This document shows, piece after piece, positions 1 through 56,060 of a stretch of 64,000 nt of DNA. Every line of letters starts with the position of its first letter. The stretch's first letter is position 1. The translations under genes were made by a program, and so were the position numbers. This DNA comes from a virus, in IMG/VR virus record IMGVR_UViG_3300045988_129382, positions 64,001 to 128,000 of that record, one strand, 5' to 3'. The notes beneath the pieces were generated by a model. It was not told where the DNA came from. It did not search any database and was given only the letters and a program-made list of their open reading frames with translations.

Positions 1-88
1 AAACCATATCGATATCTGTATGGATGGCAAAGAGTGGAATGAAAACAATCCTGGTGGTGCTAAAGATAATGGTGGTTATAGAGGTTAA
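1..88 (+). CDS. 3' end of an upstream gene (partial, enters from outside the window)
   Basis: Frame 2 is open from the window edge to TAA at 86-88 (...ENNPGGAKDNGGYRG*). Too short to name. Confidence 0.4.
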   Translation, partial: NHIDICMDGKEWNENNPGGAKDNGGYRG

Positions 89-38790: not shown

Positions 38791-39996
38791 ATGGCTTTTA
38801 AGTTAGAAAATCAGTACACATATTTATTTGAGGATTTTCAAGTAAATAATGGGTATGATATATTCATGGGGTATCAAGATAAAAATACAACAGATGATGA
38901 ACGTGAGTATTTAGAGTCTGTAGTTAAGGGTTGGATTCTTGATAATAATTATGAGGTTGCTAGGTTAACATATAGTGATGATTACATGTTGTATAACGTA
39001 AACTCACTGATGTCTTTGAATATTTCAGATATTTATTCTGATGGTGAATTTGGTGTTAATAGTATAGGTGTTTCAGTACTACAAACCTTTTTCCCTGAAT
39101 TAGAGGGAGTTGACAAAGTAAAAGGTTGTTGTATGAGAGATTTTTGTAAGAGGTCAGAAAAATCTTTTACAAGATATGTACGTAAGCTTTTGAAGTATGG
39201 TAAATCACCTAATGATATGCGGAGTATGTTTGCCTTTGTTGGTGCAGGATATTGCTCTAATTTCAGACCAGCAACAGCTAAAACTATATATGAACTGTAC
39301 GGAAAAGGTAATTGCAAGGTGTTGGATACATCAAGTGGTTTTGGTGGTAGATTGTTAGGTTTCTTTACAGCTAAAAACACAGCTGAGTATGTAGGTATAG
39401 ACCCAAACACAGCAGATAGCTGTAATAAGTTTATTGAGTTTATGCAGATGCGTTTTGGGATTAATAAAAAAGCATATGTTAATAGGATAGGTTCAGAGGA
39501 TTTCACAGTAGAGAATTATCCTCAATATGAGAACTATTTTGATATAAGCTTTACATCACCGCCATACTTTGACACAGAGAAATATTCTGATTCTGATACT
39601 CAGTCATATAAGAAATTTAACACATATGATGCGTGGGTAGATGGATTTTATCGGAATACAATCTATAATAGTTGCAATGCATTAAAGTTAGATGGAACAT
39701 TCGCTATCAATATCTTTGAGAAAGTTGATAACATTAAAGAGTATACAGAGGAGTTTCTTAATGATTGTGGCTTTTATATCATTAAGGAAGATAAGTACTT
39801 GTTGCGTGTTATGAGTGGTACTCAAAAAGGTGAAGATGGTGAGTTCTACACCAGAAAAAAAGACTCATACAATTATGAGCCAATATGGGTAGCAAAACAT
39901 TACACAGAGTTACTTAAAGATGGATTAATGACACGAGAAAAAGCAGAGGAGTGTTATAATCGTGTAAAATTTGGTAATAAAAAGATTAGTATTTAA
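38791..39996 (+). CDS. DNA methyltransferase (amino-MTase, SPPY motif), paralog A
   Basis: Motif I 'VLDTSSGFGGRL' and motif IV 'FTSPPYF' (the S/D/N-PP-Y/F signature of N4-C/N6-A MTases). Paralog of 41222-42391. Confidence 0.7.
   Translation: MAFKLENQYTYLFEDFQVNNGYDIFMGYQDKNTTDDEREYLESVVKGWILDNNYEVARLTYSDDYMLYNVNSLMSLNISDIYSDGEFGVNSIGVSVLQTFFPELEGVDKVKGCCMRDFCKRSEKSFTRYVRKLLKYGKSPNDMRSMFAFVGAGYCSNFRPATAKTIYELYGKGNCKVLDTSSGFGGRLLGFFTAKNTAEYVGIDPNTADSCNKFIEFMQMRFGINKKAYVNRIGSEDFTVENYPQYENYFDISFTSPPYFDTEKYSDSDTQSYKKFNTYDAWVDGFYRNTIYNSCNALKLDGTFAINIFEKVDNIKEYTEEFLNDCGFYIIKEDKYLLRVMSGTQKGEDGEFYTRKKDSYNYEPIWVAKHYTELLKDGLMTREKAEECYNRVKFGNKKISI
39316..39570 (+). repeat. 255-bp block 100% identical to 41738-41992
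   Basis: Compared base by base. The block runs from AAGGTGTTGGATAC... to ...CACCGCCATACTTT and covers motif I to motif IV of the MTase. Confidence 0.9.
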
Positions 39997-41221: not shown

Positions 41222-42391
41222 ATGTTAATGACAAATAATTATAGCGATGCTTTTGAAGATTTCGCTATAAAAAATGGTCGAGATATTTTCACGATATATA
41301 ACGATACTAATACAACAGATGAAGAGAGAGAAAGATTAGTTGAATGGTTATTTAACTTAATTCGTTCTAGAGATAATGCAGTTCCTTTGCATATGTGGAG
41401 TGATGATATATTCAATAAGATAGTATCTAGTTTATGTGATATTGATACAAATGTAACATATCAAGATGGTGCATACAGTCTTAATAATATAGGTGCTAAT
41501 ATACTAACACAATTCTTTCCAGAAATTTTAGATGTTGTAAAGAGTGGTAAGGCAAGTCCTAGAGATTTCTTTAAAGATGATAAAAGACTTCTTGGGTATT
41601 GTAAGACTGTTCTAAAGTATTGCACTAGTCCTTTAGAGATGTTTAAAATGATGTCTTTTAGAGGTTCTAGTAGGTGTTATAATTTCAGACCAGCAACAGC
41701 TAAGGCTCTTTATGAGTTATATGGTAAAGAAAACTCTAAGGTGTTGGATACATCAAGTGGTTTTGGTGGTAGATTGTTAGGTTTCTTTACAGCTAAAAAC
41801 ACAGCTGAGTATGTAGGTATAGACCCAAACACAGCAGATAGCTGTAATAAGTTTATTGAGTTTATGCAGATGCGTTTTGGGATTAATAAAAAAGCATATG
41901 TTAATAGGATAGGTTCAGAGGATTTCACAGTAGAGAATTATCCTCAATATGAGAACTATTTTGATATAAGCTTTACATCACCGCCATACTTTAATATAGA
42001 ACGATATTCTGATGATATAACACAATCACATGTCAAATTTAACACATATGATGCGTGGATAGATGGGTTTTATCGGAATACAATTTATAATAGTTGTAAC
42101 TCACTAAAACTTGATGGTGTTTTTGCAGTCAATATTAGTTGGGTGGATAATATTAAAGAGTATACAGAAGAATTTCTTAATGATTGTGGCTTTTATATCA
42201 TTAAGGAAGATAAGTATCTTCTAAGAATTCACCCTAGAGAGAGTTCATATGGTAGTGATAAAATGTCTAAATATGAGCCAATATGGGTAGCTAAGCATTA
42301 TACTGAGTTGTTAAAAGATGGTATGATTACACGAGATAAAGCGGAAGAATGTTATCAACGAGTAAAATTTGGTAATAAGGGGGTATTATGA
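41222..42391 (+). CDS. DNA methyltransferase (amino-MTase, SPPY motif), paralog B
   Basis: Same motif I and SPPY motif IV as paralog A. The N- and C-terminal regions have diverged. Confidence 0.7.
   Translation: MLMTNNYSDAFEDFAIKNGRDIFTIYNDTNTTDEERERLVEWLFNLIRSRDNAVPLHMWSDDIFNKIVSSLCDIDTNVTYQDGAYSLNNIGANILTQFFPEILDVVKSGKASPRDFFKDDKRLLGYCKTVLKYCTSPLEMFKMMSFRGSSRCYNFRPATAKALYELYGKENSKVLDTSSGFGGRLLGFFTAKNTAEYVGIDPNTADSCNKFIEFMQMRFGINKKAYVNRIGSEDFTVENYPQYENYFDISFTSPPYFNIERYSDDITQSHVKFNTYDAWIDGFYRNTIYNSCNSLKLDGVFAVNISWVDNIKEYTEEFLNDCGFYIIKEDKYLLRIHPRESSYGSDKMSKYEPIWVAKHYTELLKDGMITRDKAEECYQRVKFGNKGVL
41738..41992 (+). repeat. 255-bp block 100% identical to 39316-39570
   Basis: See the partner copy at 39316-39570. 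Confidence 0.9.
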
Positions 42392-44844: not shown

Positions 44845-44932
44845 GGAAAGGTGTCCGAGTGGTTTATGGTGACGGCCTTGAAAACCGTTGCACAGAGATG
44901 TGCCGTAGGTTCGAATCCTATCCTTTCCGCCA
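44845..44932 (+). tRNA. tRNA-Ser (anticodon UGA), CCA encoded
   Basis: Acceptor GGAAAGG/CCTTTCC; anticodon loop CTTGAAA; long variable arm; T-arm TAGG-TTCGAAT-CCTA; ends GCCA. Confidence 0.85.
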
Positions 44933-44933
44933 T

Positions 44934-45007
44934 AGGTCTTTAGTGTAGTGGTAACACGATAGGCTCCAAACCTATAAACAAGAGTTCGATTCTTTTAAGA
45001 CCTGCCA
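44934..45007 (+). tRNA. tRNA-Trp (anticodon CCA), CCA encoded
   Basis: Acceptor AGGTCTT/AAGACCT; D-arm GTGTAGTGGTAACAC; anticodon arm ATAGG-CTCCAAA-CCTAT; T-loop TTCGATT. Confidence 0.85.
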
Positions 45008-45017
45008 ACTTATATAT

Positions 45018-45109
45018 GGAGAGATGGTAGAGTGGCTTATTACACTTCCCTGCTAAGGAAGAGTGGGGATATATTTCCACCGTGGGTTCGAATCCCACTC
45101 TCTCCGCCA
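45018..45109 (+). tRNA. tRNA-Ser (anticodon GCU), CCA encoded
   Basis: Acceptor GGAGAGA/TCTCTCC; anticodon arm CTTCC-CTGCTAA-GGAAG; long variable arm; T-arm GTGGG-TTCGAAT-CCCAC. Confidence 0.85.
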
Positions 45110-45113
45110 ATAT

Positions 45114-45190
45114 GGCTCTATAGCTCAGGTGGATAGAGCAATGGTTTCCTAAACCATGTGTCACTGGTTCAACTCCAGTTAGGGCCACCA
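45114..45190 (+). tRNA. tRNA-Arg (anticodon CCU), CCA encoded
   Basis: Acceptor GGCTCTA/TAGGGCC; D-arm GCTC-AGGTGGATA-GAGC; anticodon arm ATGGT-TTCCTAA-ACCAT; T-arm ACTGG-TTCAACT-CCAGT. Confidence 0.85.
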
Positions 45191-45195
45191 TATAT

Positions 45196-45270
45196 GAACT
45201 CTTAGCTCAGGGGGAGAGCAGGTGACTCATAATCTCCAGGTCGGTGGTTCAAACCCACCAGGGTTCACCA
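45196..45270 (+). tRNA. tRNA with CAU anticodon (elongator Met or Ile2-type), CCA encoded
   Basis: Acceptor GAACTCT/AGGGTTC; D-arm GCTC-AGGGGGA-GAGC; anticodon loop CTCATAA with one T-T mismatch in the stem; T-arm GGTGG-TTCAAAC-CCACC. It lacks the three G-C pairs typical of an initiator tRNA. Confidence 0.8.
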
Positions 45271-45281
45271 AATTAAGTTTT

Positions 45282-45304
45282 GCATACTTCTTCAAAAAGT
45301 ATGC
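45282..45304 (+). other. Hairpin between tRNA genes (possible processing signal)
   Basis: GCATACTT-cttcaaa-AAGTATGC 8-bp stem with no T-run. Confidence 0.35.
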
Positions 45305-45310
45305 GTACAT

Positions 45311-45397
45311 GCCTGTATGGTGAAATTGGCAAACACGGCAGACTTAGAATCTGTTGAGGTAACACTCTTGTAGGTTCAACTCCTACTACAGGCACCA
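45311..45397 (+). tRNA. tRNA-Leu (anticodon UAG), CCA encoded
   Basis: Acceptor GCCTGTA/TACAGGC; anticodon arm GCAGA-CTTAGAA-TCTGT; long variable arm; T-arm GTAGG-TTCAACT-CCTAC. Confidence 0.85.
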
Positions 45398-47701: not shown

Positions 47702-48502
47702 GTGGATAATTCAAATTTAGGTAGTGGTTTATTAGTATCACCTTATGATAGTAGAGATTATAAGTTTAGGGATTTATTAAAGTTAGGTTCTGTAAATATT
47801 CCTTATGAGTATCAGAGTGAGGTATTCCCTTTTGTATATAATCAAGGAAAATCTCAGATGTGTTGTGCATGTTCTTATATTGCTGTTAGATATTTACAAG
47901 AATCAGATAATAGTCAATCTTCTTTATCTGTTCCTTTATCGCCAGCTTTCAATTATGGGTTACGCCCTGAAGAAGAGAATTTTGAGGGGATGTATCTAAG
48001 GACATGTTTAAAAGGTGGAACTGATGTAGGTTCTATTCTGTATGATGACATGCCTGGTTTCTACACAACTAATGAAGCTTATAGTAAGGTTAATAATAGT
48101 CTTGATTTGTATAGAAATAAAGCTGATGAATTTAGGATTGATTCATATTATGTATGTAGTTCTAGAAGAGAGATACAGGTTGCTATTTTAACAACTAAGG
48201 CAGTCATTACTGGTATTCCTATTTTTGATAGCTTTTATGATGTAGGTTCTGATGGTGTTGTGCAATATGATACTACAAGAGATGTGGTAAATTATGGTGG
48301 TCACGCTGTTACTATCACTGGTTGGGGTTATATTAATAATAAATTCCATTGGAGGCTTTTAAATTCATGGGGTACTGAGTGGGGTGAAGGTGGTTATGCT
48401 TGGTTACCTGAGGAATATCCTTGGATTGAAAACGCATATGTTATCGTTGATACATCAACAAAAATGAAGTTTAATGATTATATCAGTAAATTTTACTGTT
48501 AG
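47702..48502 (+). CDS. Papain-like cysteine peptidase (family C1A-like)
   Basis: 'NQGKSQMCCACSY' (Gln plus catalytic Cys region), 'YGGHAVTITGWGY' (His), and 'LLNSWGTEWGEGGYAWL', which parallels papain 'IKNSWGTGWGENGYIRI'. Confidence 0.75.
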   Translation: MDNSNLGSGLLVSPYDSRDYKFRDLLKLGSVNIPYEYQSEVFPFVYNQGKSQMCCACSYIAVRYLQESDNSQSSLSVPLSPAFNYGLRPEEENFEGMYLRTCLKGGTDVGSILYDDMPGFYTTNEAYSKVNNSLDLYRNKADEFRIDSYYVCSSRREIQVAILTTKAVITGIPIFDSFYDVGSDGVVQYDTTRDVVNYGGHAVTITGWGYINNKFHWRLLNSWGTEWGEGGYAWLPEEYPWIENAYVIVDTSTKMKFNDYISKFYC

Positions 48503-48944: not shown

Positions 48945-49008
48945 ATAAGTGTACTCTTTAGTATTGATTTTGAGAGTATTGATATTTTAAAAGATGTGGA
49001 GGTACATC

Positions 49009-49257
49009 ATGAAAAAAGATTTACAACAAAAGATTGAAAGTTCTTTAAGTCTAGATGATATTCTAGCATTAGAAAATGGTCTTAGTATTGCTGAAAATGT
49101 AGTAGGGGATGAAATCTATATTTTCAGGAATGAGGTAGGGAATGGGTATAGTATGATGTTCCGTACAAAAAAAGAAAATGAATTGTATGTAGAGGATTTT
49201 GACGAAGATGGCAATTTAGTCAATGTTCATTATGATACAATTAATGGTGAGGAGTAA
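49009..49257 (+). CDS. Small acidic protein (candidate antitoxin, by position only)
   Basis: ATG at 49009 after a GGAGG RBS. It ends 6 nt before the MazF-like gene. Confidence 0.5.
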   Translation: MKKDLQQKIESSLSLDDILALENGLSIAENVVGDEIYIFRNEVGNGYSMMFRTKKENELYVEDFDEDGNLVNVHYDTINGEE

Positions 49258-49263
49258 AATAAA

Positions 49264-49950
49264 ATGGCTACACAAATGAATGATGAGTATACACGTGTAA
49301 CAAAAGGAATGGTCTTTATCTATGATATTGATGAGGATAAAGACAAAAAACAATTTAATACTACAAAGTATAATCGTCCAGATTGCACTGAGTATGGTCG
49401 TAGACCGTGGGTAGTGGTTTCTGATAATAAATCTATTGATAAGATTTGTACGATTGCACCTATGTCTACAGGTCAATATGGTAAGGGGGATAAAATTAAA
49501 ACTCATGTTGATTTAACTCTTAATGGTACTAATACATGCATTATGTTAGAGCAGATGCGTTTTGTTAATACCCATGAGTTGAAGGAGTATGTAACTATTT
49601 TATGTAACAGCACAATGCGTTTAGTTGATGACGCAGTGGCTTTTCATCTTGGATTAAATCTCTACAAACCAAATAAGGTAGTTTCTATGCCAGCTAGTAA
49701 GAAGGCTTATGAAGTTATTAATGAGAAAAGTTCTGTAGAGGTTAAAGAGGCAACAAAAGTAAATACAAAAAAGTCTGAGACGAGAGGACGTAGAACTAAA
49801 TATGATAAAGATTCTTTAAAAGAGATTCTATCGGATTATAAAACTATGTCTGAGGAAGATTTCTCAGAGAAGTATAAATGTAGAAATCATCAAGCGTATC
49901 TATATAAAGGATACTACATTAAAAAACTGTATAAAACAAACTTTAAATAA
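49264..49950 (+). CDS. MazF/PemK-like domain protein with a basic C-terminal extension
   Basis: 'KGMVFIYDID...EYGRRPWVVVSDNKSIDKICTIAPMST...THVDL...NTCIMLEQMRFVNTHEL' fits the PemK pattern (G.i..vd....E..g.RP.vVvs....v.PiTs....v.l....s.v..dqirtvd..rl). Confidence 0.55.
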   Translation: MATQMNDEYTRVTKGMVFIYDIDEDKDKKQFNTTKYNRPDCTEYGRRPWVVVSDNKSIDKICTIAPMSTGQYGKGDKIKTHVDLTLNGTNTCIMLEQMRFVNTHELKEYVTILCNSTMRLVDDAVAFHLGLNLYKPNKVVSMPASKKAYEVINEKSSVEVKEATKVNTKKSETRGRRTKYDKDSLKEILSDYKTMSEEDFSEKYKCRNHQAYLYKGYYIKKLYKTNFK

Positions 49951-49968
49951 GAAGTGAAAGATGATATA

Positions 49969-49999
49969 ATAAGGACTAGGTATTCTAGTCCTTATTTTT
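49969..49999 (+). terminator. Rho-independent terminator
   Basis: AAGGACTAG-gtatt-CTAGTCCTT stem followed by ATTTTT. Confidence 0.8.
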
Positions 50000-50025
50000 A
50001 TGTTTAGAATGAAGGTGATTGTCTT

Positions 50026-50481
50026 ATGTGTAGTGAAGCTATAAAAACTGATATAGATTTATTACTAGAGGATTTAGGGAGTGCTGAAAATCTCAATCAT
50101 GAATGTATCATTTTGTATGATAATCATGTATGTAAGGTATTCAATAAGGATTATGCTGTAAATGAAGATAATGTACTTCTATTTGATTCATTGTTAGATT
50201 GGAGAGAAAGTGCTTTAAACACGTATCAATTAAAAAGTTTACTTTCTTCTTTAGTGGGTACAGATACTAAAATGTTATTTACAGCTTATGATGGTTCTAC
50301 ACATGGTTATGTTACAAGTTATATGACTAACAAATATAGCGACTATGGTGTCAATGTAAGGGTTATAGCTATAGGCGATAAAACTAAAAATATAGTTGGT
50401 AGAGAGAATCACGAGATAGATGTAGAAGAGGGTAGAATTTATGAAGATAAGATAACTATGGATTTCAATAGGAGACTATAG
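50026..50481 (+). CDS. Hypothetical protein
   Basis: 151-aa ORF with a GAAGGTGA RBS. Confidence 0.55.
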   Translation: MCSEAIKTDIDLLLEDLGSAENLNHECIILYDNHVCKVFNKDYAVNEDNVLLFDSLLDWRESALNTYQLKSLLSSLVGTDTKMLFTAYDGSTHGYVTSYMTNKYSDYGVNVRVIAIGDKTKNIVGRENHEIDVEEGRIYEDKITMDFNRRL

Positions 50482-50590
50482 TTATCTGTTGGTCTATAGT
50501 GATTCTGACTACAGACTGTACTAAATAAGAACATAATAAAAGTAATACTATATACACTAATACAATTAACAATGATATTAATCATATAAT

Positions 50591-50626
50591 AATTACTATA
50601 ATTACTATAATTACTATAATTACTAT
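50591..50626. repeat. Tandem direct repeat, 9 bp x 4 (AATTACTAT)
   Basis: Four perfect abutting copies, read directly from the sequence. Confidence 0.95.
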
Positions 50627-50711
50627 AAGAAATATAATCATCAATATAATTAATTTCTTCTAACGAAGAAAAGAATTATATTTCAAGTAGGGATAGGTTA
50701 ATATAACTGAT

Positions 50712-50766
50712 ATAATTGATTATAAAATAATTGATTATAAAATAATTGATTATAGTTGATTGATGG
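50712..50766. repeat. Tandem direct repeat, 15 bp x 3 (ATAATTGATTATAAA) plus a TTGATTGATGG tail
   Basis: Copies at 50712, 50727 and 50742 (the last is degenerate at its end). Confidence 0.95.
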
Positions 50767-50805
50767 AAGTGAGATATAGGAGATAAAACACAGGAGGATA
50801 TTGTA

Positions 50806-50878
50806 ATTAATAGAGATTGATTAATAGAGATTGATTAATAGAGATTGATTATAATAGGACTGATTAATATAGAGGCTG
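50806..50878. repeat. Tandem direct repeat, 14 bp x 3 (ATTAATAGAGATTG) plus 2 degenerate copies
   Basis: Perfect copies at 50806, 50820 and 50834. Degenerate copies ATTATAATAGGACTG and ATTAATATAGAGGCTG follow. Confidence 0.95.
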
Positions 50879-50880
50879 GT

Positions 50881-50946
50881 TGATATAGGGATATATGATA
50901 TAGGGATATATGATATAGGGATATATGATATAGGGATATATGATAT
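50881..50946. repeat. Tandem direct repeat, 15 bp x 4.4 (TGATATAGGGATATA)
   Basis: Perfect copies at 50881, 50896, 50911 and 50926, plus a partial copy at 50941. Confidence 0.95.
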
Positions 50947-51282
50947 CAATGAGTTGAGTATATTAGGTTGGATTATGTACATCGTGATAGTGGCACATAG
51001 AATATGAGAAGATAATATGTGTGATGTATGTAAGAGAGGGTAGAGTGTGCTAAATGAGAAAAACACGCAAGAGAGTAACTGTATGGATAGGGTATGTTAG
51101 TAATATAGGTTAGAAGTGTCCTATAGATGCGAGAATATGTATTCTATTGATAGAGATGGTAAGAGGATGAGTGACACTATTTAAAAAAATAAATAGTATT
51201 TGAATATAGAGTAATATAGAAGACCGTTGCGATGTCAATGAGTTGATTAATGGTGATTGATGTCAGTTGAGGTGATTGAGTT

Positions 51283-51723
51283 ATGGAGATTAAGGAATTA
51301 AAAGAAGAGATACTTAAAAGATATGGTAGATATTTATTTGGTATAGTAGATATTGATGTATGGTATGATAGGGTAGAGATAGTGAGTCGAGTTGAGATAC
51401 GAAAAGGTGGTAGAATACATCAACATGAAGGTACAATAGTGGTAGCTATTGATAGGGATGTAGTTGATACTAAAAATGTAAAAGAATGTCTATATAGTAT
51501 TAAATTAGGCTCTATTAACTATCTAAAAATTAAGTGTGATGAGTTTAGGAAAGATACGACTGGTGGTAGTGCTGGGTTAGTCAGTCGGTTGTATTATATT
51601 GCAATAGATGATAGAGATATGGGTGATAAGATATTAGATATCATGGGTAACATACATGGTTTAAGTGAGTGTAAAGGGTTTAATGAAATTACATTTAATG
51701 TACATGTACATAACCTACTATAG
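51283..51723 (+). CDS. Hypothetical protein, paralog family member 1
   Basis: 'LKRYGRYLFGIVDIDVWYDRVEIVSRVEI' aligns with 'VTKYGMVLFGDVGIWVYDNRVEIYNHISI' of the next ORF. Confidence 0.6.
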   Translation: MEIKELKEEILKRYGRYLFGIVDIDVWYDRVEIVSRVEIRKGGRIHQHEGTIVVAIDRDVVDTKNVKECLYSIKLGSINYLKIKCDEFRKDTTGGSAGLVSRLYYIAIDDRDMGDKILDIMGNIHGLSECKGFNEITFNVHVHNLL

Positions 51724-51759
51724 TTGATAAGTATGAGAATGGTTGAGGGATTAGATTAA

Positions 51760-52251
51760 ATGAATACAGAAGAAATAATACATAGAGCATTGAATGATTC
51801 AGTAGTCAAAGCTATAGAGGGGATAGATACTGAGTTATATAATAGGGTTAAAGATTTATTGAGTCGGATAGTAACTAAGTATGGGATGGTACTATTTGGT
51901 GATGTAGGTATATGGGTATATGATAATAGGGTAGAGATATACAATCATATCAGTATAGCTAAGAAGAGGTATAAACATGAATGTAAAGGTTTGTTGGTAG
52001 TATGGTATAACAGTAATGCTAATAAACTAGGTAATATAAAGAGTGTACAATTCATGAGAGATAGCTATATGAGATTGGTTGATGCAGATGTGTATGAATT
52101 AAGTGAGAGAGTGGATGATATAGCTATGGGGTTAAGGGATAGTAATGGTAGGGAGAGAAATCACGTTGTAGTCAAGGGTGTGTTGGGTAAGTTAAGTGAT
52201 ACAAATGATTTGGTAGGTATAGGTAATATAAAGCTACACAAAGCGTATTAG
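51760..52251 (+). CDS. Hypothetical protein, paralog family member 2
   Basis: See 51283-51723. GAGGGA RBS. Confidence 0.6.
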   Translation: MNTEEIIHRALNDSVVKAIEGIDTELYNRVKDLLSRIVTKYGMVLFGDVGIWVYDNRVEIYNHISIAKKRYKHECKGLLVVWYNSNANKLGNIKSVQFMRDSYMRLVDADVYELSERVDDIAMGLRDSNGRERNHVVVKGVLGKLSDTNDLVGIGNIKLHKAY

Positions 52252-52447
52252 TAGAGGTAATAGTAGAGGTATTGGATACTATGGGAAGATATGTATGGTT
52301 TAGATTAAAAGACATGATTTCAGTTAAGGTTAGTTATAGAGGGTGTTCTAAAGAATTTGAATATTTTTCTTGTGGTAGATGGTCATAATAGTTAATAACA
52401 TTATAGCTAACATAACATTACAAAGCTGTACAGATATATACAAAATC

Positions 52448-52463
52448 ATTCTATATATTGTAA
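52448..52463. promoter_or_regulatory. NrdR-box-like palindrome 1
   Basis: attCTATATATTGTaa against the NrdR consensus acaCwAtATaTwGtgt. The 11-nt core matches completely. Confidence 0.5.
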
Positions 52464-52475
52464 TTATGTATTAAT

Positions 52476-52484
52476 TGGTATACT
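52476..52484 (+). promoter_or_regulatory. Extended -10 promoter element upstream of nrdD
   Basis: TGgTATACT. A possible -35 TTGTAA lies at 52458-63 (15-nt spacer). Confidence 0.4.
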
Positions 52485-52495
52485 ATATATAGTAA
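52480..52495. promoter_or_regulatory. NrdR-box-like palindrome 2
   Basis: ataCTATATATAGTaa has a perfectly palindromic core ACTATATATAGT. Its centre is 32 bp from box 1, and it overlaps the -10. Confidence 0.5.
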
Positions 52496-52564
52496 AACCT
52501 AGTGGTAAAAATGTACTAAATGGTATTTGGTAATGATACAGTGTTTATTAATTATAGGAGGATT

Positions 52565-54844
52565 GTGTTGATAACAGAAGATATGGTTGAGTTTAATCAA
52601 AATGATGAGACTATTGTTGATAGTGTTAACAATGTATTAAAGCGTGATGGACGAGTTGTAGTATTTGATAGTGGTAAAGTATTCAATGCTATGTTGAGTG
52701 CGTATAGTAGTTTACATGATAGTATTGATAGTGAGTATATTAATGTATGTAATGATGCTATTAATACTATATTAGATGAGTATGATGCATTAGACGATAG
52801 AATATTGGGTGTAGAGGATATACAAGACATCGTAGAGAATACATTGTTGGATTCTAAATATAATGATGTAGCTAAGGCATATATACTCTATAGAGATAAG
52901 CGTAGTCAAGAGCGTGGTAATTTAATTGATACAGAGTTACAAGAGTTACTAAGTGGTGATAGTGAGTATTGGAATACAGAGAATTCCAATAAGGATGTCA
53001 AATTAAATACTACGTTAAGGGATTATATTGCTGGCATTGTGAGTACAGATATAGGTAAGCGTAAGTTACTTCCTAAAGATGTGGTAGAGGCACATGACAA
53101 AGGACTTATTCATCAACACGATATGGATTATATCGCTGAGTATCGTACTAATTGTGAGTTAATCAATTTAAATGATATATTACAGAATGGTACAGTAGTA
53201 AATGGTGTAGGGATAGATAAACCTAAAAGGTTGTTAACTGCATCAACGATAGCAAGTCAGATTGTGTTAGCAGTTACTAGTCTAACTTATGGTGGAGCTA
53301 GTATTAATCTAGGTCATTTAGCACCATTTGTGAGAGATAGTTATAATTGGTATGTCAATAAATATAAGAGTTGGGGATTAGATGATACTGATGTAGTTGA
53401 GTATGCTAAACGTGACCTAGCTAAAGAGGTAGAGGATGCGATTCAGACATTCAATTATCAAATTAATTCATTTACAAACAGTAATGGTCAGAGCCCGTTT
53501 CTAACAGTATTTATGTATCTAGGTGGTGAGACTGAGTATCGTGATGAATTAGCTATGCTAATTGAAGAAATGTTAAAACAGCGTATACAAGGTTTCAAGA
53601 ATGAAAAGGGTGTATATATCAGTCCAGCGTTTCCTAAGTTAATCTATGTGTTAGAGGAAGATAATATTCATGAAGATAGTCGCTATTGGTATTTAACAGA
53701 GTTAAGTGCTAAGTGTAGTGCTAAGAGGTTGGTTCCTGATTACATTTCAGAGAAGAGAATGAAAGAACTAAAAGATGGTGATGTATTTAGTTCAATGGGT
53801 TGTCGCAGTTTCTTGTCAGTTGATACATTTACAGAAGAATTTGGCAATTTAGCTAAGGCATTAGATTATGATGGTAAACATAAATATTGGGGGAGATTCA
53901 ACGTCGGGGTTGCAACAGTTAATTTAGTTGATGTATCATTAACAGCCATATCTGATGTTGTTAATAGTGGTTATGTGTATACTATAGATGATATCATTAA
54001 ACGATTTTATGATGTATTAGAAGAGCGTTGTGAGTTATGTCATAAAGGGTTACAGGTACGTATTAATCGGTTAGAGAATACAACAAGCGATGTAGCACCT
54101 ATTTTATGGCAACATGGTGCATTAGCAAGGCTAAATAAGGGTGAGACATTATATCATTTAATACATAATGGATATGCTACAGCTAGTTTAGGGTATGCTG
54201 GTTTGTATGAGTGTGTAATGGCATTAATCAATAAGAGTCATACAACAGAAGAGGGTATGGAGTTAGGTAAAGCTATCATGCAACGATTGAATGATATTTG
54301 TAATCGTTGGAAAGATGAAGAGAATATCGGATATAGTTTGTATGGGACTCCTTTGGAATCCACTACGTATAAGTTTGCTAAGTGTTTACAACAACGATTT
54401 GGTAAGATAGAGGGTATAACAGACCATAGCTATATTACGAATTCGTATCATACATGCGTTCGTGAGGAGATAGATGCATTTACAAAACTCAAATTAGAGA
54501 GTGAGTATCAAGCATTAAGTCCTGGTGGTTGTATCAGTTATGTAGAAATACCTAATATGCAGAATAACATTAAAGCTGTATTGGATATTATTAAATATAT
54601 TTATGATACAATTATGTATGCTGAATTGAATACTAAATCAGATTATTGTCAAGAATGTGGTTTTAGTGGTGAGATTCAGATTAAAGGTGATACAGGTCAT
54701 TTGTATTGGGAGTGTCCTAATTGTGGGAATACTAATCAAGATACAATGAACGTGTGTCGCCGCACGTGTGGTTATTTAGGTACAAACTTCTTTAATCAAG
54801 GACGTACTGAGGAGATTAAAGATAGGGTATTACATTTAGATTAA
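52565..54844 (+). CDS. nrdD: Anaerobic ribonucleoside-triphosphate reductase (class III RNR)
   Basis: N-terminal ATP-cone ('VLKRDGRVVVFDSGKV'). C-terminal Zn ribbon 'CQECGFSG...CPNCGN' and glycyl-radical motif 'RRTCGYLG'. The start is GTG 52565 (after AGGAGG) or ATG 52583. Confidence 0.9.
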   Translation: MLITEDMVEFNQNDETIVDSVNNVLKRDGRVVVFDSGKVFNAMLSAYSSLHDSIDSEYINVCNDAINTILDEYDALDDRILGVEDIQDIVENTLLDSKYNDVAKAYILYRDKRSQERGNLIDTELQELLSGDSEYWNTENSNKDVKLNTTLRDYIAGIVSTDIGKRKLLPKDVVEAHDKGLIHQHDMDYIAEYRTNCELINLNDILQNGTVVNGVGIDKPKRLLTASTIASQIVLAVTSLTYGGASINLGHLAPFVRDSYNWYVNKYKSWGLDDTDVVEYAKRDLAKEVEDAIQTFNYQINSFTNSNGQSPFLTVFMYLGGETEYRDELAMLIEEMLKQRIQGFKNEKGVYISPAFPKLIYVLEEDNIHEDSRYWYLTELSAKCSAKRLVPDYISEKRMKELKDGDVFSSMGCRSFLSVDTFTEEFGNLAKALDYDGKHKYWGRFNVGVATVNLVDVSLTAISDVVNSGYVYTIDDIIKRFYDVLEERCELCHKGLQVRINRLENTTSDVAPILWQHGALARLNKGETLYHLIHNGYATASLGYAGLYECVMALINKSHTTEEGMELGKAIMQRLNDICNRWKDEENIGYSLYGTPLESTTYKFAKCLQQRFGKIEGITDHSYITNSYHTCVREEIDAFTKLKLESEYQALSPGGCISYVEIPNMQNNIKAVLDIIKYIYDTIMYAELNTKSDYCQECGFSGEIQIKGDTGHLYWECPNCGNTNQDTMNVCRRTCGYLGTNFFNQGRTEEIKDRVLHLD

Positions 54845-54868
54845 CAATTCTATTAATAGAATAAACTA

Positions 54869-54897
54869 TTGTAAAGTAGTGTAAATTTTGGTATACT
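54869..54897 (+). promoter_or_regulatory. Promoter candidate with extended -10
   Basis: TTGTAA (54869-74), 17-nt spacer, TGgTATACT (54889-97). Confidence 0.5.
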
Positions 54898-54938
54898 TTA
54901 GGTGTAGGTAAAGACTTATACCTAAAGTATACTTTTTT
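54892..54938 (+). terminator. Rho-independent terminator overlapping the promoter -10
   Basis: TATACTTTAGGT / ACCTAAAGTATA 12-bp stem followed by CTTTTTT. Confidence 0.7.
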
Positions 54939-54962
54939 ATTTAAAATAAAAGGATGGTTATT

Positions 54963-55166
54963 ATGAAAAAATCTAGTTATGAGCAAGACGTATATATTTT
55001 ATTTACTACGTCTGATTTGTTTAGTTCTCCTTTGTTGGGTGTGTATGCCTCTAAAGAGGAAGCTGAGGCTGAGTACTTAGAAGTACAAGAAGAGTATTGT
55101 TTGGAAGACTATGAGTTAAGTATTGAGCATAGTACATATAATTTTAAATTCAAAGAAGGTGTGTAA
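54963..55166 (+). CDS. Small acidic hypothetical protein
   Basis: ATG at 54963 after an AAAGGATGG RBS. Confidence 0.55.
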   Translation: MKKSSYEQDVYILFTTSDLFSSPLLGVYASKEEAEAEYLEVQEEYCLEDYELSIEHSTYNFKFKEGV

Positions 55167-55694: not shown

Positions 55695-56060
55695 ATGTTA
55701 CGTGTTAGTGTCACTGAGGTGATTTCTATGCATGAAAACGTCATAAATGTTTATGGTGGTGTTCATGGTATTAGGGATAAAGGGTTATTATCCTCTATTG
55801 TTATTGGTGTTTTTCAAACATTTGGTGGTAATGAGTTATATCCTACAGATAAAGATAAAGTTTGTAGGTTGTATTATATGTTTGTTACTAATCAAGTATT
55901 TTTAGATGGCAATAAGCGTACTGCTACAGCATTGTGTATGTTTCTTAATAAAAAGTACAGTATAAAATCAAATGTCTTTGATGTTAATAATCCTCATAGA
56001 CTATCTTTAGATGTTGCTAATGGCAACATTTCATATGATGACTTATTAGAAATGTGGTGA
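55695..56060 (+). CDS. Doc/Fic-family (death-on-curing-like) protein with a Gln in place of the motif His
   Basis: 'VISMHENVINVYGGVHGIRDKGLLSSIV...' and 'NQVFLDGNKRTA' compare with the Doc motif 'H.F.D(A/G)NKRTA'. The Gln codon CAA is at 55893-95. Confidence 0.7.
   Translation: MLRVSVTEVISMHENVINVYGGVHGIRDKGLLSSIVIGVFQTFGGNELYPTDKDKVCRLYYMFVTNQVFLDGNKRTATALCMFLNKKYSIKSNVFDVNNPHRLSLDVANGNISYDDLLEMW

What the first reader, a model, noticed from the sequence alone, without database searches (positions are those of the whole stretch)
50482..51282. 800-bp gene-free region with four different tandem direct-repeat families sharing a TGATT(A/G) core: candidate origin, iteron or centromere-like element
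Within about 360 bp there are four arrays: 9 bp x4 (AATTACTAT, 50591-626), 15 bp x3 (ATAATTGATTATAAA, 50712-56), 14 bp x3 plus 2 degenerate copies (ATTAATAGAGATTG, 50806-78), and 15 bp x4.4 (TGATATAGGGATATA, 50881-946). The copies abut with no spacers. Two families (the 15-bp ATAATTGATTATAAA and 14-bp ATTAATAGAGATTG units), together with the flank 51241-51280 (GAGTTGATTAATGGTGATTGATGTCAGTTGAGGTGATTGAG), carry TGATT(A/G), giving a dozen or more potential protein-binding sites. The only ORF here (50821-51066, minus strand) merely translates the repeats (ISYIP x4). Multi-family iteron blocks next to AT-rich DNA are typical of replication origins, partition sites and packaging recognition sites. 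Which role applies here is inference. The 15-bp TTGATT units also mimic tandem TTGATT-16-TAAAAT promoters.
Basis: partly seen in the sequence, partly recalled or inferred. Interest (0 to 1): 0.75.

Follow-up and report, generated by a model that had tools for sequence, protein, structure and literature searches.

The report
Hypervariable repeats around a phage RNA
An 800-base gene-free stretch in a ~200-kb phage from the human mouth holds a conserved folded RNA and two conserved hairpins; the tandem repeats seen there are real but are fast-changing, lineage-specific expansions between those elements, not conserved protein-binding iterons.

Summary
The four tandem arrays exist exactly as described and are the four strongest tandem repeats in the 64-kb window. 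Comparison with about 35 related contigs (33 distinct versions, two clades plus intermediates, human oral metagenomes) changes what they mean. Copy numbers differ between strains whose flanking proteins are identical. Relatives carry 32 unrelated repeat units at several hot-spots, and only 7 contain TGATT. Two full-length genomes have no arrays at all. The conserved parts lie between the arrays. Just after the upstream gene is an RNA hairpin with a covarying stem and an invariant loop, GAUUCUG. Next comes an invariant 40-nt near-palindrome that looks like a terminator. Further on is a ~210-nt + strand structured RNA with no Rfam match, 99% paired and with 11 pairs changed on both sides. My best reading is a transcription-control and non-coding-RNA locus that heads the nrdD gene block. 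The arrays would then be slippage expansions in its unconstrained AT-rich spacers, and some of them multiply promoter-like −10 elements. Iteron or centromere roles are not supported. A replication origin cannot be excluded: the AT-richest DNA of the window is here, and repeat formation is confined to this locus. Interest is moderate.

The parts
50026..50481 (+). 'Up' gene: a 151-aa protein of unknown function that is always the upstream neighbour of the element
   Evidence: Present in every relative, 93-97% identical in clade 1 and 64% in clade 2. No Pfam, PHROG or PDB match. The AF2 model is unusable, pLDDT 45.8.
50491..50517 (+). Hairpin 1: 10-bp stem with an invariant 7-nt loop GAUUCUG (50501-50507), starting ten bases after the up gene's stop codon
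   Evidence: Eleven distinct versions show compensatory and G.U changes that pair only on the + strand, while the loop never varies. It is the only such hairpin in the window. Folding energy is -8.6 kcal/mol.
50521..50642 (.). AT-richest segment of the whole 64-kb window (13-14% GC). It contains hot-spot 1, the 9-bp x4.4 array at 50589-50628
   Evidence: A sister strain has x3.4 copies, and other lineages carry a 15-bp ACAATAATACTATAT array here or no array.
50643..50682 (+). Invariant near-palindrome AATATAATTAATTTCTTC-TAAC-GAAGAAAAGAATTATATT followed by UUUC (UUUUUU in clade 2). Probably the intrinsic terminator of the upstream unit, possibly also a protein-recognition site
   Evidence: RNA folding energy -12.3 kcal/mol, z -5.05. 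Arms are 16/18 complementary. It is 95-98% identical across clades whose flanking genes are ~70% identical.
50712..50754 (.). Hot-spot 2: 15-bp x2.9 array (ATAATTGATTATAAA), lying next to an extended -10-like TGATATAAT
   Evidence: Relatives carry TGATATAATTGAT x3.1, a 26-bp unit x4.1 in which each copy has TGATATAAT, or nothing.
50806..50873 (.). Hot-spot 3: 14-bp x4.8 array (ATTAATAGAGATTG). Its degenerate 3' copies overlap the conserved block TATAATAGGACTGATTAATATA (50849-50870)
   Evidence: This unit occurs at x3.8 to x9.5 in relatives, TAGATTGATT occurs at x2 to x6 in others, and the array is absent in L005 and L043. The block is conserved in both clades.
50881..50946 (.). Hot-spot 4: 15-bp x4.4 array (TGATATAGGGATATA), immediately upstream of the RNA block
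   Evidence: The sister strain has x2.4, some relatives have one copy, and clade 2 carries the unrelated GGATTCATAGGAAT arrays here.
50973..51180 (+). Conserved structured RNA block of ~210 nt: two long imperfect hairpins and a short hairpin with a variable loop, joined by invariant purine-rich single strands (GUAAGAGAGGGUAGAGU, CAAGAGAGUAACUGU, UAGAGAUGGUAAGAG)
   Evidence: RNAalifold gives 54 pairs. 99.3% of cells are paired and the covariation score is 0.205 against <=0.066 for slid registers, with 0/500 shuffles reaching it. With 25 sequences, 99.0% are paired and 11 pairs changed on both sides. Alifold energy is -34.1 on the + strand and -0.8 on the - strand. 1-nt indels exclude coding. 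No Rfam hit at E<=10. One copy per genome region.
51176..51197 (+). AU-rich hairpin (ACUAUUUA-loop-UAAAUAGU) followed by AUUUG. Possibly the 3' end of the RNA; its 5' arm overlaps the last predicted helix of the RNA block
   Evidence: -5.0 kcal/mol. A hairpin is present in all versions, but stem length and loop differ, and clade 2 has no U-run.
51233..51282 (+). Hot-spot 5: degenerate duplication of the leader and Shine-Dalgarno region before the next gene
   Evidence: Relatives carry TAATATAAGGATAT x4.9-5.8, TGGTATGAGAA x4.4 or other arrays here.
51283..52251 (+). Two paralogous small genes (51283-51723 and 51760-52251) of a family found only in this phage group, present in 0-3 copies among relatives
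   Evidence: The AF2 model has pLDDT 79.6 and an alpha+beta fold with no PDB match (TM <=0.31).
52252..52519 (.). Second array-prone non-coding region, directly upstream of nrdD (52520-54844)
   Evidence: Relatives carry arrays at +637 to +965 from the RNA anchor. In L013 this region is fused to the RNA locus because the paralogs are missing.

Best explanation
The gap between the 151-aa 'up' gene and the nrdD gene block is a transcription-control and non-coding-RNA locus, not an iteron array. The proposed order on the + strand is as follows. The upstream transcript carries a hairpin with an invariant loop, the kind of signal that is typical of a protein- or RNA-recognised operator. It then runs through the AT-richest DNA of the window into an invariant terminator-like palindrome. 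A promoter region follows. It leads into a ~210-nt structured RNA that is at least as conserved as the neighbouring genes and that heads a + strand block (paralogs, nrdD, nrdG, dUTPase and others) containing strong intrinsic terminators. My favoured specific role for the RNA is a cis-acting leader that modifies elongation or termination for that block, working like put, EAR or conAn2; this step is inference. The tandem arrays are recent replication-slippage expansions in the unconstrained AT-rich spacers between these constrained blocks. They come and go quickly and are dispensable. Where a unit contains a -10-like or TTGATT hexamer they multiply promoter elements, so they may tune expression. 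Shown here: the arrays, their turnover, the conserved blocks, the RNA structure and its strand. Inferred: the transcription start and end, the RNA's role, and slippage as the mechanism.
For: Arrays vary while the flanks stay fixed. L002 has both flanking proteins 100% identical to the window but 1, 1 and 2 fewer units in three arrays, which accounts for the 801 versus 748 nt lengths. There are 32 unrelated unit families in 33 versions. Two full-length contigs, L005 (213 kb) and L043 (201 kb), have no arrays. The conserved blocks sit between the arrays. Between clades the RNA block is 78% identical and the palindrome 95%, against 70-72% for the flanking genes. RNA structure is supported; 17% of paired cells are G.U, and alifold gives -34.1 on the + strand and -0.8 on the - strand. 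Hairpin 1 covaries with G.U pairs that work only on the + strand. The palindrome folds with z = -5 and is followed by a U-run. Intrinsic terminators are enriched on the + strand in this neighbourhood, 12 found against 2.8 expected, including 54890 and 58163 downstream of the RNA. Each lineage has a good sigma-A-like element between the palindrome and the RNA, and several of these are created or multiplied by arrays. Strong Shine-Dalgarno sites and an SPO1-like structural module fit a Firmicutes-type host with sigma-A promoters. Precedent for a small gene followed by a long antiterminator RNA in Gram-positive mobile elements comes from PMC8191782, and for put RNA from PMC9378689. In yeast, transcription is a positive predictor of tandem-repeat mutability (PMC5814968).
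Against: No promoter-like site is positionally conserved in all versions, so the RNA's 5' end is unknown. Its 3' hairpin is weak and lacks a U-run in clade 2. No expression data exist. The up protein lacks the ConAn1 domain PF17362, and the RNA has neither the GC-rich segment nor the 20-bp terminal inverted repeats of conAn2. Most covariation separates just two clades, so independent events are few, although add some. Relaxed constraint alone does not obviously explain why arrays are so dense here and absent from every other intergenic gap within +/-6 kb. A DNA-level process such as origin firing could be the cause.
Confidence: 0.5

Rival explanations
1. Replication origin of the transcript-primed kind, as in T4 ori(uvsY)/ori(34) (promoter plus unwinding element) or ColE1 RNA II. 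A + strand transcript would form a stable R-loop in the AT-rich or purine-rich DNA and prime leading-strand synthesis. The arrays would be either scars of repeated initiation and fork stalling or auxiliary binding sites.
For: The AT-richest 100-nt windows of the whole window lie at 50521-50690. Array formation is confined to this ~2-kb zone whatever the unit sequence, which suggests a DNA-metabolic process tied to position. The transcript is extremely purine-rich and C-poor (15 C in 208 nt), and GC skew peaks at 0.62 just downstream; that would favour RNA:DNA hybrids. The phage has T4-style replication and recombination genes: UvsX-like recombinase, clamp-loader-like protein, SSB and Mre11/Rad50-like proteins. 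A satellite's non-coding region with four repeat families proved to contain its origin (PMC7145576).
Against: No conserved iterons exist. DnaA boxes are fewer than the window average. No initiator gene is recognisable nearby. There is no skew inflection: all genes are on one strand and the cumulative skew is monotonic. RNA helices kept by compensatory change point to a function of the folded RNA, which an R-loop primer does not require, although ColE1 RNA II is a counter-example.
Confidence: 0.2
2. Boundary of a direct terminal repeat, or a packaging or concatemer-processing region. Short repeat arrays next to terminal repeats are known from T7 (SRL/SRR) and from the herpesvirus 'a' sequence (my own knowledge, not checked here).
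For: At least 13 of about 38 independent contigs end inside this ~0.8-kb region, where I estimate about 1.2 by chance from the contig lengths. SPO1-like phages have long terminal repeats (general knowledge), and the structural module here is SPO1-like.
Against: More than 20 contigs, including about 15 of full genome length, read straight through the region and have it at arbitrary internal positions, so it is not a non-redundant terminus. Contigs also break at other repeats: the L001 and L044 contig ends lie near the 84%-identical duplicated genes at ~38-42 kb. Within-sample repeat heterogeneity therefore explains the breaks more simply. No terminase gene is within the window's annotated genes.
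Confidence: 0.07
3. One reading: the arrays are iterons or centromere-like sites, meaning multiple copies of a TGATT(A/G) site bound cooperatively by one phage or host protein.
For: TGATT[AG] is enriched in the window's copy, 8 found against 1.4 expected. One TGATT site, GGACTGATTRATATA, is conserved in all versions.
Against: The site count is 2-9 and falls to 2-3 in array-less genomes. Only 7 of 32 unit families contain TGATT. Unit periods of 9, 10, 13, 14, 15 and 26 bp show no common helical phasing. No ParA/ParB/ParR-like or Rep-like neighbour was found, and the downstream paralog is an alpha+beta protein with no match to any solved structure, including DNA-binding proteins.
Confidence: 0.05
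4. Assembly artefact: the arrays are errors of short-read assembly.
For: The region is a strong assembly-break hot-spot.
Against: An identical 801-nt sequence appears in an independent ENA assembly. The same unit families were recovered in up to 6 distinct versions from different samples and assemblers. Copy-number differences are exact multiples of the unit.
Confidence: 0.02

Closest known systems
conAn bipartite antitermination system of Gram-positive conjugative elements (pLS20 conAn1 + conAn2; PMC8191782)
   Same: A small protein gene is followed directly by a 260-600-bp non-coding region whose RNA is the active part. The module sits at the head of a long same-strand operon studded with intrinsic terminators, in a mobile element of low-GC Gram-positive bacteria, and sequence conservation between systems is poor.
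   Different: The up protein has no PF17362 domain. The RNA here is C-poor and lacks a GC-rich segment and 20-bp terminal inverted repeats. A terminator-like palindrome lies between the gene and the RNA. No functional data exist. Tandem arrays are not a described feature of conAn.
HK022 put RNA and Bacillus EAR RNA (cis-acting RNA antiterminators; PMC9378689, and as discussed in PMC8191782); lambda nut boxB hairpin (own knowledge)
   Same: Structured RNA lies just downstream of a promoter and upstream of terminators. Hairpin 1 resembles boxB-type operators in having an invariant loop on a freely covarying stem.
   Different: put (~70 nt) and EAR (~120 nt) are smaller, no Rfam family matches this region, and no N-like protein is identified.
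Iteron-containing origins, for example the non-coding region of the Vibrio satellite PLE, which has four repeat families of which only one is the RepA_N iteron (PMC7145576), and lambda or plasmid oriV (own knowledge)
   Same: A large non-coding region with several direct-repeat families next to AT-rich DNA.
   Different: In those systems the iterons are conserved and an initiator gene is adjacent. Here the repeats are not conserved, can be absent, and no initiator is recognisable.
Transcript-primed origins: T4 ori(uvsY)/ori(34) and ColE1 RNA II (own knowledge)
   Same: A promoter plus an AT-rich unwinding region, and a purine-rich, structured transcript.
   Different: No mapping data exist, and the AT-richest part lies upstream of the structured RNA rather than downstream of its promoter.
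Variable-number tandem repeats and contingency loci in bacterial promoters (own knowledge); transcription-linked repeat instability (PMC5814968)
   Same: Perfect short tandem units change in copy number between near-identical strains, and some lie in promoter DNA and alter the number of promoter hexamers.
   Different: This has been little described in lytic phage genomes. Here many unrelated units arise in one ~2-kb zone rather than one unit at one site.

Membership tests
Iteron-type replication origin | Several copies of one conserved repeat (typically 17-22 bp) retained in number and sequence among relatives | tested here: not met
   Copy numbers differ between strains with identical flanks. 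There are 32 unrelated units, and array-less genomes exist.
Iteron-type replication origin | Adjacent gene for the cognate initiator (Rep, O-like or DnaA-like) | tested here: inconclusive
   No Pfam, PHROG or PDB match of that kind in the neighbours. The downstream paralog's fold has no match to any solved structure, DNA-binding proteins included. The up protein remains of unknown fold.
Iteron-type replication origin | AT-rich unwinding element beside the repeats | tested here: met
   50521-50690 has the lowest GC (13-14%) of all 100-nt windows in the 64 kb.
Iteron-type replication origin | DnaA boxes | tested here: not met
   No box with <=1 mismatch in the region. At <=2 mismatches there are 2.5 per kb against 5.2 per kb window-wide.
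Iteron-type replication origin | Replication starts here | not testable with these tools
   Needs marker-frequency or coverage data from infected cells.
Partition centromere (parS/parC) | Adjacent ParA/ParM and ParB/ParR genes, with the repeat array acting as their operator | tested here: not met
   No such domains in the flanking genes or in the other window genes scanned.
pac/cos site or genome terminus | No reads or contigs cross a non-redundant terminus; the site usually lies near the terminase genes | tested here: not met
   More than 20 contigs span the region at internal positions. No terminase is among the scanned genes. A terminal-repeat boundary cannot be tested.
Intrinsic terminator (palindrome 50643-50682) | Stable stem-loop followed by a U-run on the transcribed strand | tested here: met
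   Folding energy -12.3 kcal/mol, z -5.05. It is followed by UUUC in clade 1 and UUUUUU in clade 2. The stem has no G-C-rich core, so the consensus scan missed it.
conAn antitermination system | ConAn1 processivity domain (Pfam PF17362) in the upstream small protein | tested here: not met
   Not found even at E<=10 in the up protein of either clade or in its neighbours.
conAn antitermination system | 260-600-nt RNA element directly downstream of the small gene and upstream of operon terminators | tested here: met
   This is a layout match only: a 0.64-1.15-kb non-coding region containing a structured RNA, with terminators at 54890 and 58163.
conAn antitermination system | Read-through of terminators in cis | not testable with these tools
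   Needs a reporter assay.
Any Rfam RNA family | Covariance-model match | tested here: not met
   No hit at E<=10 in 50300-51500. No hit at gathering score in the window or in four relatives other than tRNAs and an unrelated RAGATH-18.
Type III toxin-antitoxin (ToxI-like repeat RNA) | Tandem ~34-36-nt repeats followed by a ToxN/AbiQ-type toxin gene | tested here: not met
   Units are 9-15 nt in the window (7-39 in relatives), are not conserved, and no such toxin domain lies downstream.

The most novel reading that the evidence does not exclude
The locus is a phage regulatory module built on RNA. It would consist of an operator-like hairpin and a large, previously undescribed structured RNA that acts in cis on RNA polymerase (processive antitermination) or primes replication. 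Its output would be tuned by rapidly evolving tandem arrays that multiply promoter elements, which would amount to a contingency locus in a lytic ~200-kb phage of the human mouth.
Probability: 0.15. Interest if true: 0.75.

Novelty: new variant of a known kind. Interest (0 to 1): 0.5.

Why it matters
Three points make this matter. First, it is a caution for genome scans: several repeat families packed into one gap look like iterons, but comparative data show that here they are unstable by-products, or at most tuning elements. Second, it uncovers a candidate new structured RNA and an operator-like hairpin. Both are conserved above the level of the neighbouring genes, in a common but uncultured group of ~200-kb, distantly SPO1-like phages from the human oral cavity, and both sit at the head of the nucleotide-metabolism genes. 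[quoted passage not shown] Third, a ~2-kb zone that keeps generating unrelated perfect tandem arrays is a natural system for asking what drives repeat formation in phage DNA. It also explains why metagenomic assemblies of these phages so often break at this spot.

Tried and rejected
- Megablast of the region against 50,697 phage records found no match.
- Rfam found nothing at E<=10.
- A search for a second copy of the RNA block or the arrays elsewhere in the window found none.
- The sigma-70 scan showed promoter-like sites are not enriched in the region (9 found, 16.9 expected), and none is positionally conserved in all versions.
- A CsrA-sponge reading was rejected because GGA motifs are not enriched in clade 1 and only slightly above expectation in some clade-2 versions.
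- A small protein gene inside the RNA block is excluded by 1-nt indels and by the absence of a conserved ORF.
- The RNA as a leader specific to the downstream paralog family was rejected because L013 lacks both paralogs and the locus abuts nrdD.
- The host or prophage clue failed: the genome-contig scan gave only chance 17-mer hits.
- Attempts to find a third clade failed: the IMG/VR protein-profile scan and a second DNA anchor returned nothing new.
- PDB sequence searches with the three neighbouring proteins found nothing.
- The AF2 model of the downstream paralog has no informative fold match, TM <=0.31.
- The AF2 model of the up protein was too poor to use, so no fold search was run.
- An exhaustive profile search for the up protein found 16 distant small proteins with no Pfam or PHROG label. 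Three genomic contexts showed no shared long non-coding region, and the one 687-nt gap hides a 93-codon ORF.
- pLS20 could not be fetched from the plasmid collection, so the conAn test used the Pfam domain named in the paper instead.
- The GAUUCUG loop might pair with the conserved CAGGA/CAGAA block, but both sides are nearly invariant, so this pairing is untested.
Full report
**1. The observation**

The four arrays are present at the stated coordinates:
- 9 bp x4.4 at 50589-50628
- 15 bp x2.9 at 50712-50754
- 14 bp x4.8 at 50806-50873 (85% matches)
- 15 bp x4.4 at 50881-50946

Three of them are 100% perfect. Together they are the four top-scoring tandem repeats of the 64-kb window, with scores of 80-132 against 70 for the next best. 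The interval 50482-51282 has no + strand ORF. At 801 nt it is the largest non-coding gap in the window, where intergenic gaps over 70 nt add up to only 3.8 kb. An independent ENA assembly (L001, a 200,143-bp scaffold) carries an identical 801-nt sequence, so the arrays are not an artefact.

**2. The genome**

All ORFs of at least 100 aa that look like genes are on the + strand. GC content is ~31% and GC skew is strongly positive throughout. The window encodes:
- baseplate and tail proteins, including a gp16.2-like protein 32% identical to that of Bacillus phage SPO1
- a DNA polymerase, a ligase, a clamp-loader-like protein, a UvsX-like recombinase, Mre11/Rad50-like proteins and SSB
- six tRNAs
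- MazF-like and Doc/Fic-like proteins, NrdD, NrdG and a dUTPase

Related contigs are 199-213 kb long and come from human oral metagenomes. Nothing similar is present at the DNA level among deposited phages. The genome scan returned only chance hits, so there is no host or prophage clue.

**3. Comparative anatomy**

I collected the homologous region in four ways: through the flanking proteins, through two invariant DNA anchors, through exact-protein look-ups, and from metagenome contigs. This gave about 35 independent contigs and 33 distinct versions. They fall into two clades, with the up protein 64% identical between them, plus intermediates. Alignment shows a mosaic of invariant or near-invariant blocks separated by hot-spots where tandem arrays appear.

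The arrays are unstable:
- L002 has both flanking proteins 100% identical to the window but has 3.4, 3.8 and 2.4 copies where the window has 4.4, 4.8 and 4.4. This accounts exactly for the 53-nt length difference.
- L006 and L007 are near-identical but have TAGATTGATT x6 versus x2 and TGATATAGGGATATA x1 versus x3.4.
- Across all versions there are 32 unrelated unit families, 7-39 bp long, with 2-9.5 copies, mostly perfect. Only 7 contain TGATT.
- Two full-length contigs, L005 (213,346 bp) and L043 (201,051 bp), have no arrays at all.
- The TGATT[AG] count is 2-9 per version and 2-3 in the array-less ones, against ~0.8 expected.

A high number of TGATT sites is therefore not a conserved property.

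Array formation is nevertheless tied to this locus. In the 33 versions, arrays scoring at least 60 occur only from about -610 to +1830 nt relative to the RNA anchor. That span covers this gap and the next non-coding gap before nrdD. No arrays occur anywhere else within +/-6 kb.

**4. What is conserved**

(a) Hairpin 1 (50491-50517) starts ten bases after the up gene's stop codon. Eleven versions have different 10-bp stems that stay paired through compensatory and G.U changes valid only on the + strand, while the loop GAUUCUG never changes. It is unique in the window.

(b) A stretch of 13-14% GC contains the most AT-rich 100-nt windows in the 64 kb.

(c) An invariant 40-nt near-palindrome lies at 50643-50682. 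Its folding energy is -12.3 kcal/mol with z = -5, and it is followed by UUUC, or UUUUUU in clade 2. It is 95-98% identical between clades whose flanking genes are ~70% identical.

(d) Short conserved blocks include GTAGGGAT, AACACAGGAAGATAT and TATAATAGGACTGATTRATATA.

(e) A ~210-nt block lies at 50973-51180. 1-nt indels at several places rule out coding. RNAalifold predicts 54 pairs in six helices. On that structure:
- 99.3% of cells pair and 9 pairs changed on both sides, against 0-2 in registers slid by 1-3 columns
- the covariation score is 0.205 against <=0.066, and no shuffle out of 500 reaches it
- five further lineages keep 99.0% pairing, raise the both-sides count to 11, and add an independent U-A to G-C switch
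- 17% of paired cells are G.U
- the consensus fold is -34.1 kcal/mol on the + strand and -0.8 on the - strand
- the single-sequence fold is -50.3 against -26 kcal/mol

Between clades this block is 78% identical, against 70.5% and 71.8% for the flanking genes. No Rfam family matches, and there is one copy per genome region.

(f) A weak AU-rich hairpin follows the block.

**5. Transcription context**

Canonical intrinsic terminators are enriched on the + strand of 42.5-62 kb: 12 found against 2.8 expected. They include one at 49968 just before the up gene, and 54890 and 58163 downstream. No sigma-A-like promoter is positionally conserved in every version. Each lineage does have a good candidate between the palindrome and the RNA block, for example TTGATA-16-TGaTATAAT in clade 2. 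Several arrays are multiplied copies of the extended -10 element TGATATAAT: 13 bp x3.1 in L004 and 26 bp x4.1 in L228. The downstream neighbours vary. There are 0-3 tandem paralogs of a small family confined to this phage group, and nrdD always follows. The RNA is therefore tied to the up gene and the nrdD block, not to the paralogs.

**6. Interpretation**

The parts that selection preserves are RNA-level signals on the + strand and a terminator-like palindrome. I therefore read the locus in four parts: the end of one transcription unit (hairpin 1 and the palindrome), a promoter region, a structured RNA heading the next block, and arrays that arise by slippage in the unconstrained AT-rich spacers.

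The layout resembles the conAn system of Gram-positive conjugative elements. There, a small gene is followed directly by a long RNA-encoding gap, ahead of a same-strand operon with internal terminators, and the 260-600-nt RNA is the antiterminator (PMC8191782). It also resembles put and EAR (PMC9378689). That is my favoured specific mechanism, but it is inference. The ConAn1 domain PF17362 is absent, and the conAn2 hallmarks are absent too. So this locus is not a member of that family.

**7. Rivals**

An origin cannot be excluded. The AT-richest DNA, the purine-rich transcript, the T4-like replication genes and the positional confinement of array formation all fit a transcript-primed origin. 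Against it: there are no conserved iterons, no excess of DnaA boxes, no recognisable initiator and no skew inflection.

A non-redundant terminus is excluded, because more than 20 contigs read through the region at arbitrary internal positions. A terminal-repeat boundary remains possible but is unsupported.

At least 13 of about 38 contigs end inside the region. Summing 1600/L over the contig lengths gives about 1.2 expected by chance. Repeat heterogeneity is the most economical explanation. Contigs also break at the other repeat in the window, the duplicated genes at 38.8-42.4 kb. In one sample, two contigs stop on either side of the arrays (L011 and L031).

**8. Limits**

No expression, replication or terminus data are available. 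The ends of the RNA are unknown. Much of the covariation separates only two clades. The neighbouring proteins are uninformative: the up-protein model is unusable, the paralog model has no fold match, and distant relatives of the up protein carry no annotation and share no context.

**9. Verdict**

The iteron/centromere interpretation is not supported, and an origin remains possible on other grounds. What is really there is a conserved regulatory and non-coding-RNA locus inside a zone of hypervariable tandem repeats. This is a new variant of known kinds of element and is of moderate interest.

Noticed in passing
window 50482-51282 and homologous loci (L008, L011, L015, L016, L017, L031, L050, L051, L053, L060, L070, L073, L083; gap in L012/L030): At least 13 independent metagenome contigs end inside this ~0.8-kb region, roughly ten times the number expected from their lengths. 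In one sample two contigs stop on either side of the arrays. The locus is an assembly-break hot-spot for this phage group.
   Followed up: partly
window 38791-39996 and 41222-42391 (repeats at 39188-39487/41610-41909, 39724-39797/42143-42216 and 39871-39980/42269-42378): Two paralogous ~400-aa genes lie 2.4 kb apart and are 83-95% identical at the DNA level over several stretches, with a weak methyltransferase-like PHROG hit. The ends of two full-length contigs (L001, L044) fall near them.
   Followed up: no
L005 1755-1815: A RAGATH-18 RNA (Rfam RF03064, 62.7 bits) lies ~4 kb upstream of the element in one relative. The window has no such hit.
   Followed up: no
L226 4976-6398: In one relative nrdD is called as a 198-aa fragment followed by a weak HNH_3 ORF. 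This suggests a homing-endonuclease or intron-type insertion in nrdD.
   Followed up: no
window 49264-49950 and 55695-56060: The phage encodes a MazF/PemK-like protein (228 aa, with a C-terminal extension) and a Fic/Doc-like protein (121 aa). Neither has an obvious adjacent antitoxin. A papain-like peptidase lies at 47702-48502.
   Followed up: no
window 49000-55000: Local composition is anomalous. AT skew turns positive only here (+0.02 to +0.12), and GC skew peaks at 0.62 at 51-52 kb (0.55 at 52-53 kb), so the + strand is unusually purine-rich around and downstream of the element.
   Followed up: no
window 51283-52251; L007, L013, L019, L033: The small paralogous family downstream of the element (conserved motif LFGDV..WVY.DRVEI) varies from 0 to 3 tandem copies among relatives and is found only in this phage group.
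   Followed up: partly
window 44845-45397: A block of six tRNA genes (Ser-TGA, Trp, Ser-GCT, Arg-CCT, Met, Leu-TAG) lies in a locally GC-richer stretch 5 kb upstream.
   Followed up: no
window 50501-50507 and ~50791-50797: The invariant hairpin-1 loop GAUUCUG could pair with the conserved CAGGA/CAGAA of the block AACACAGGAAG 290 nt downstream (5 bp, with one U.G to U-A change between clades). This possible long-range interaction could not be tested because both sides barely vary.
   Followed up: partly
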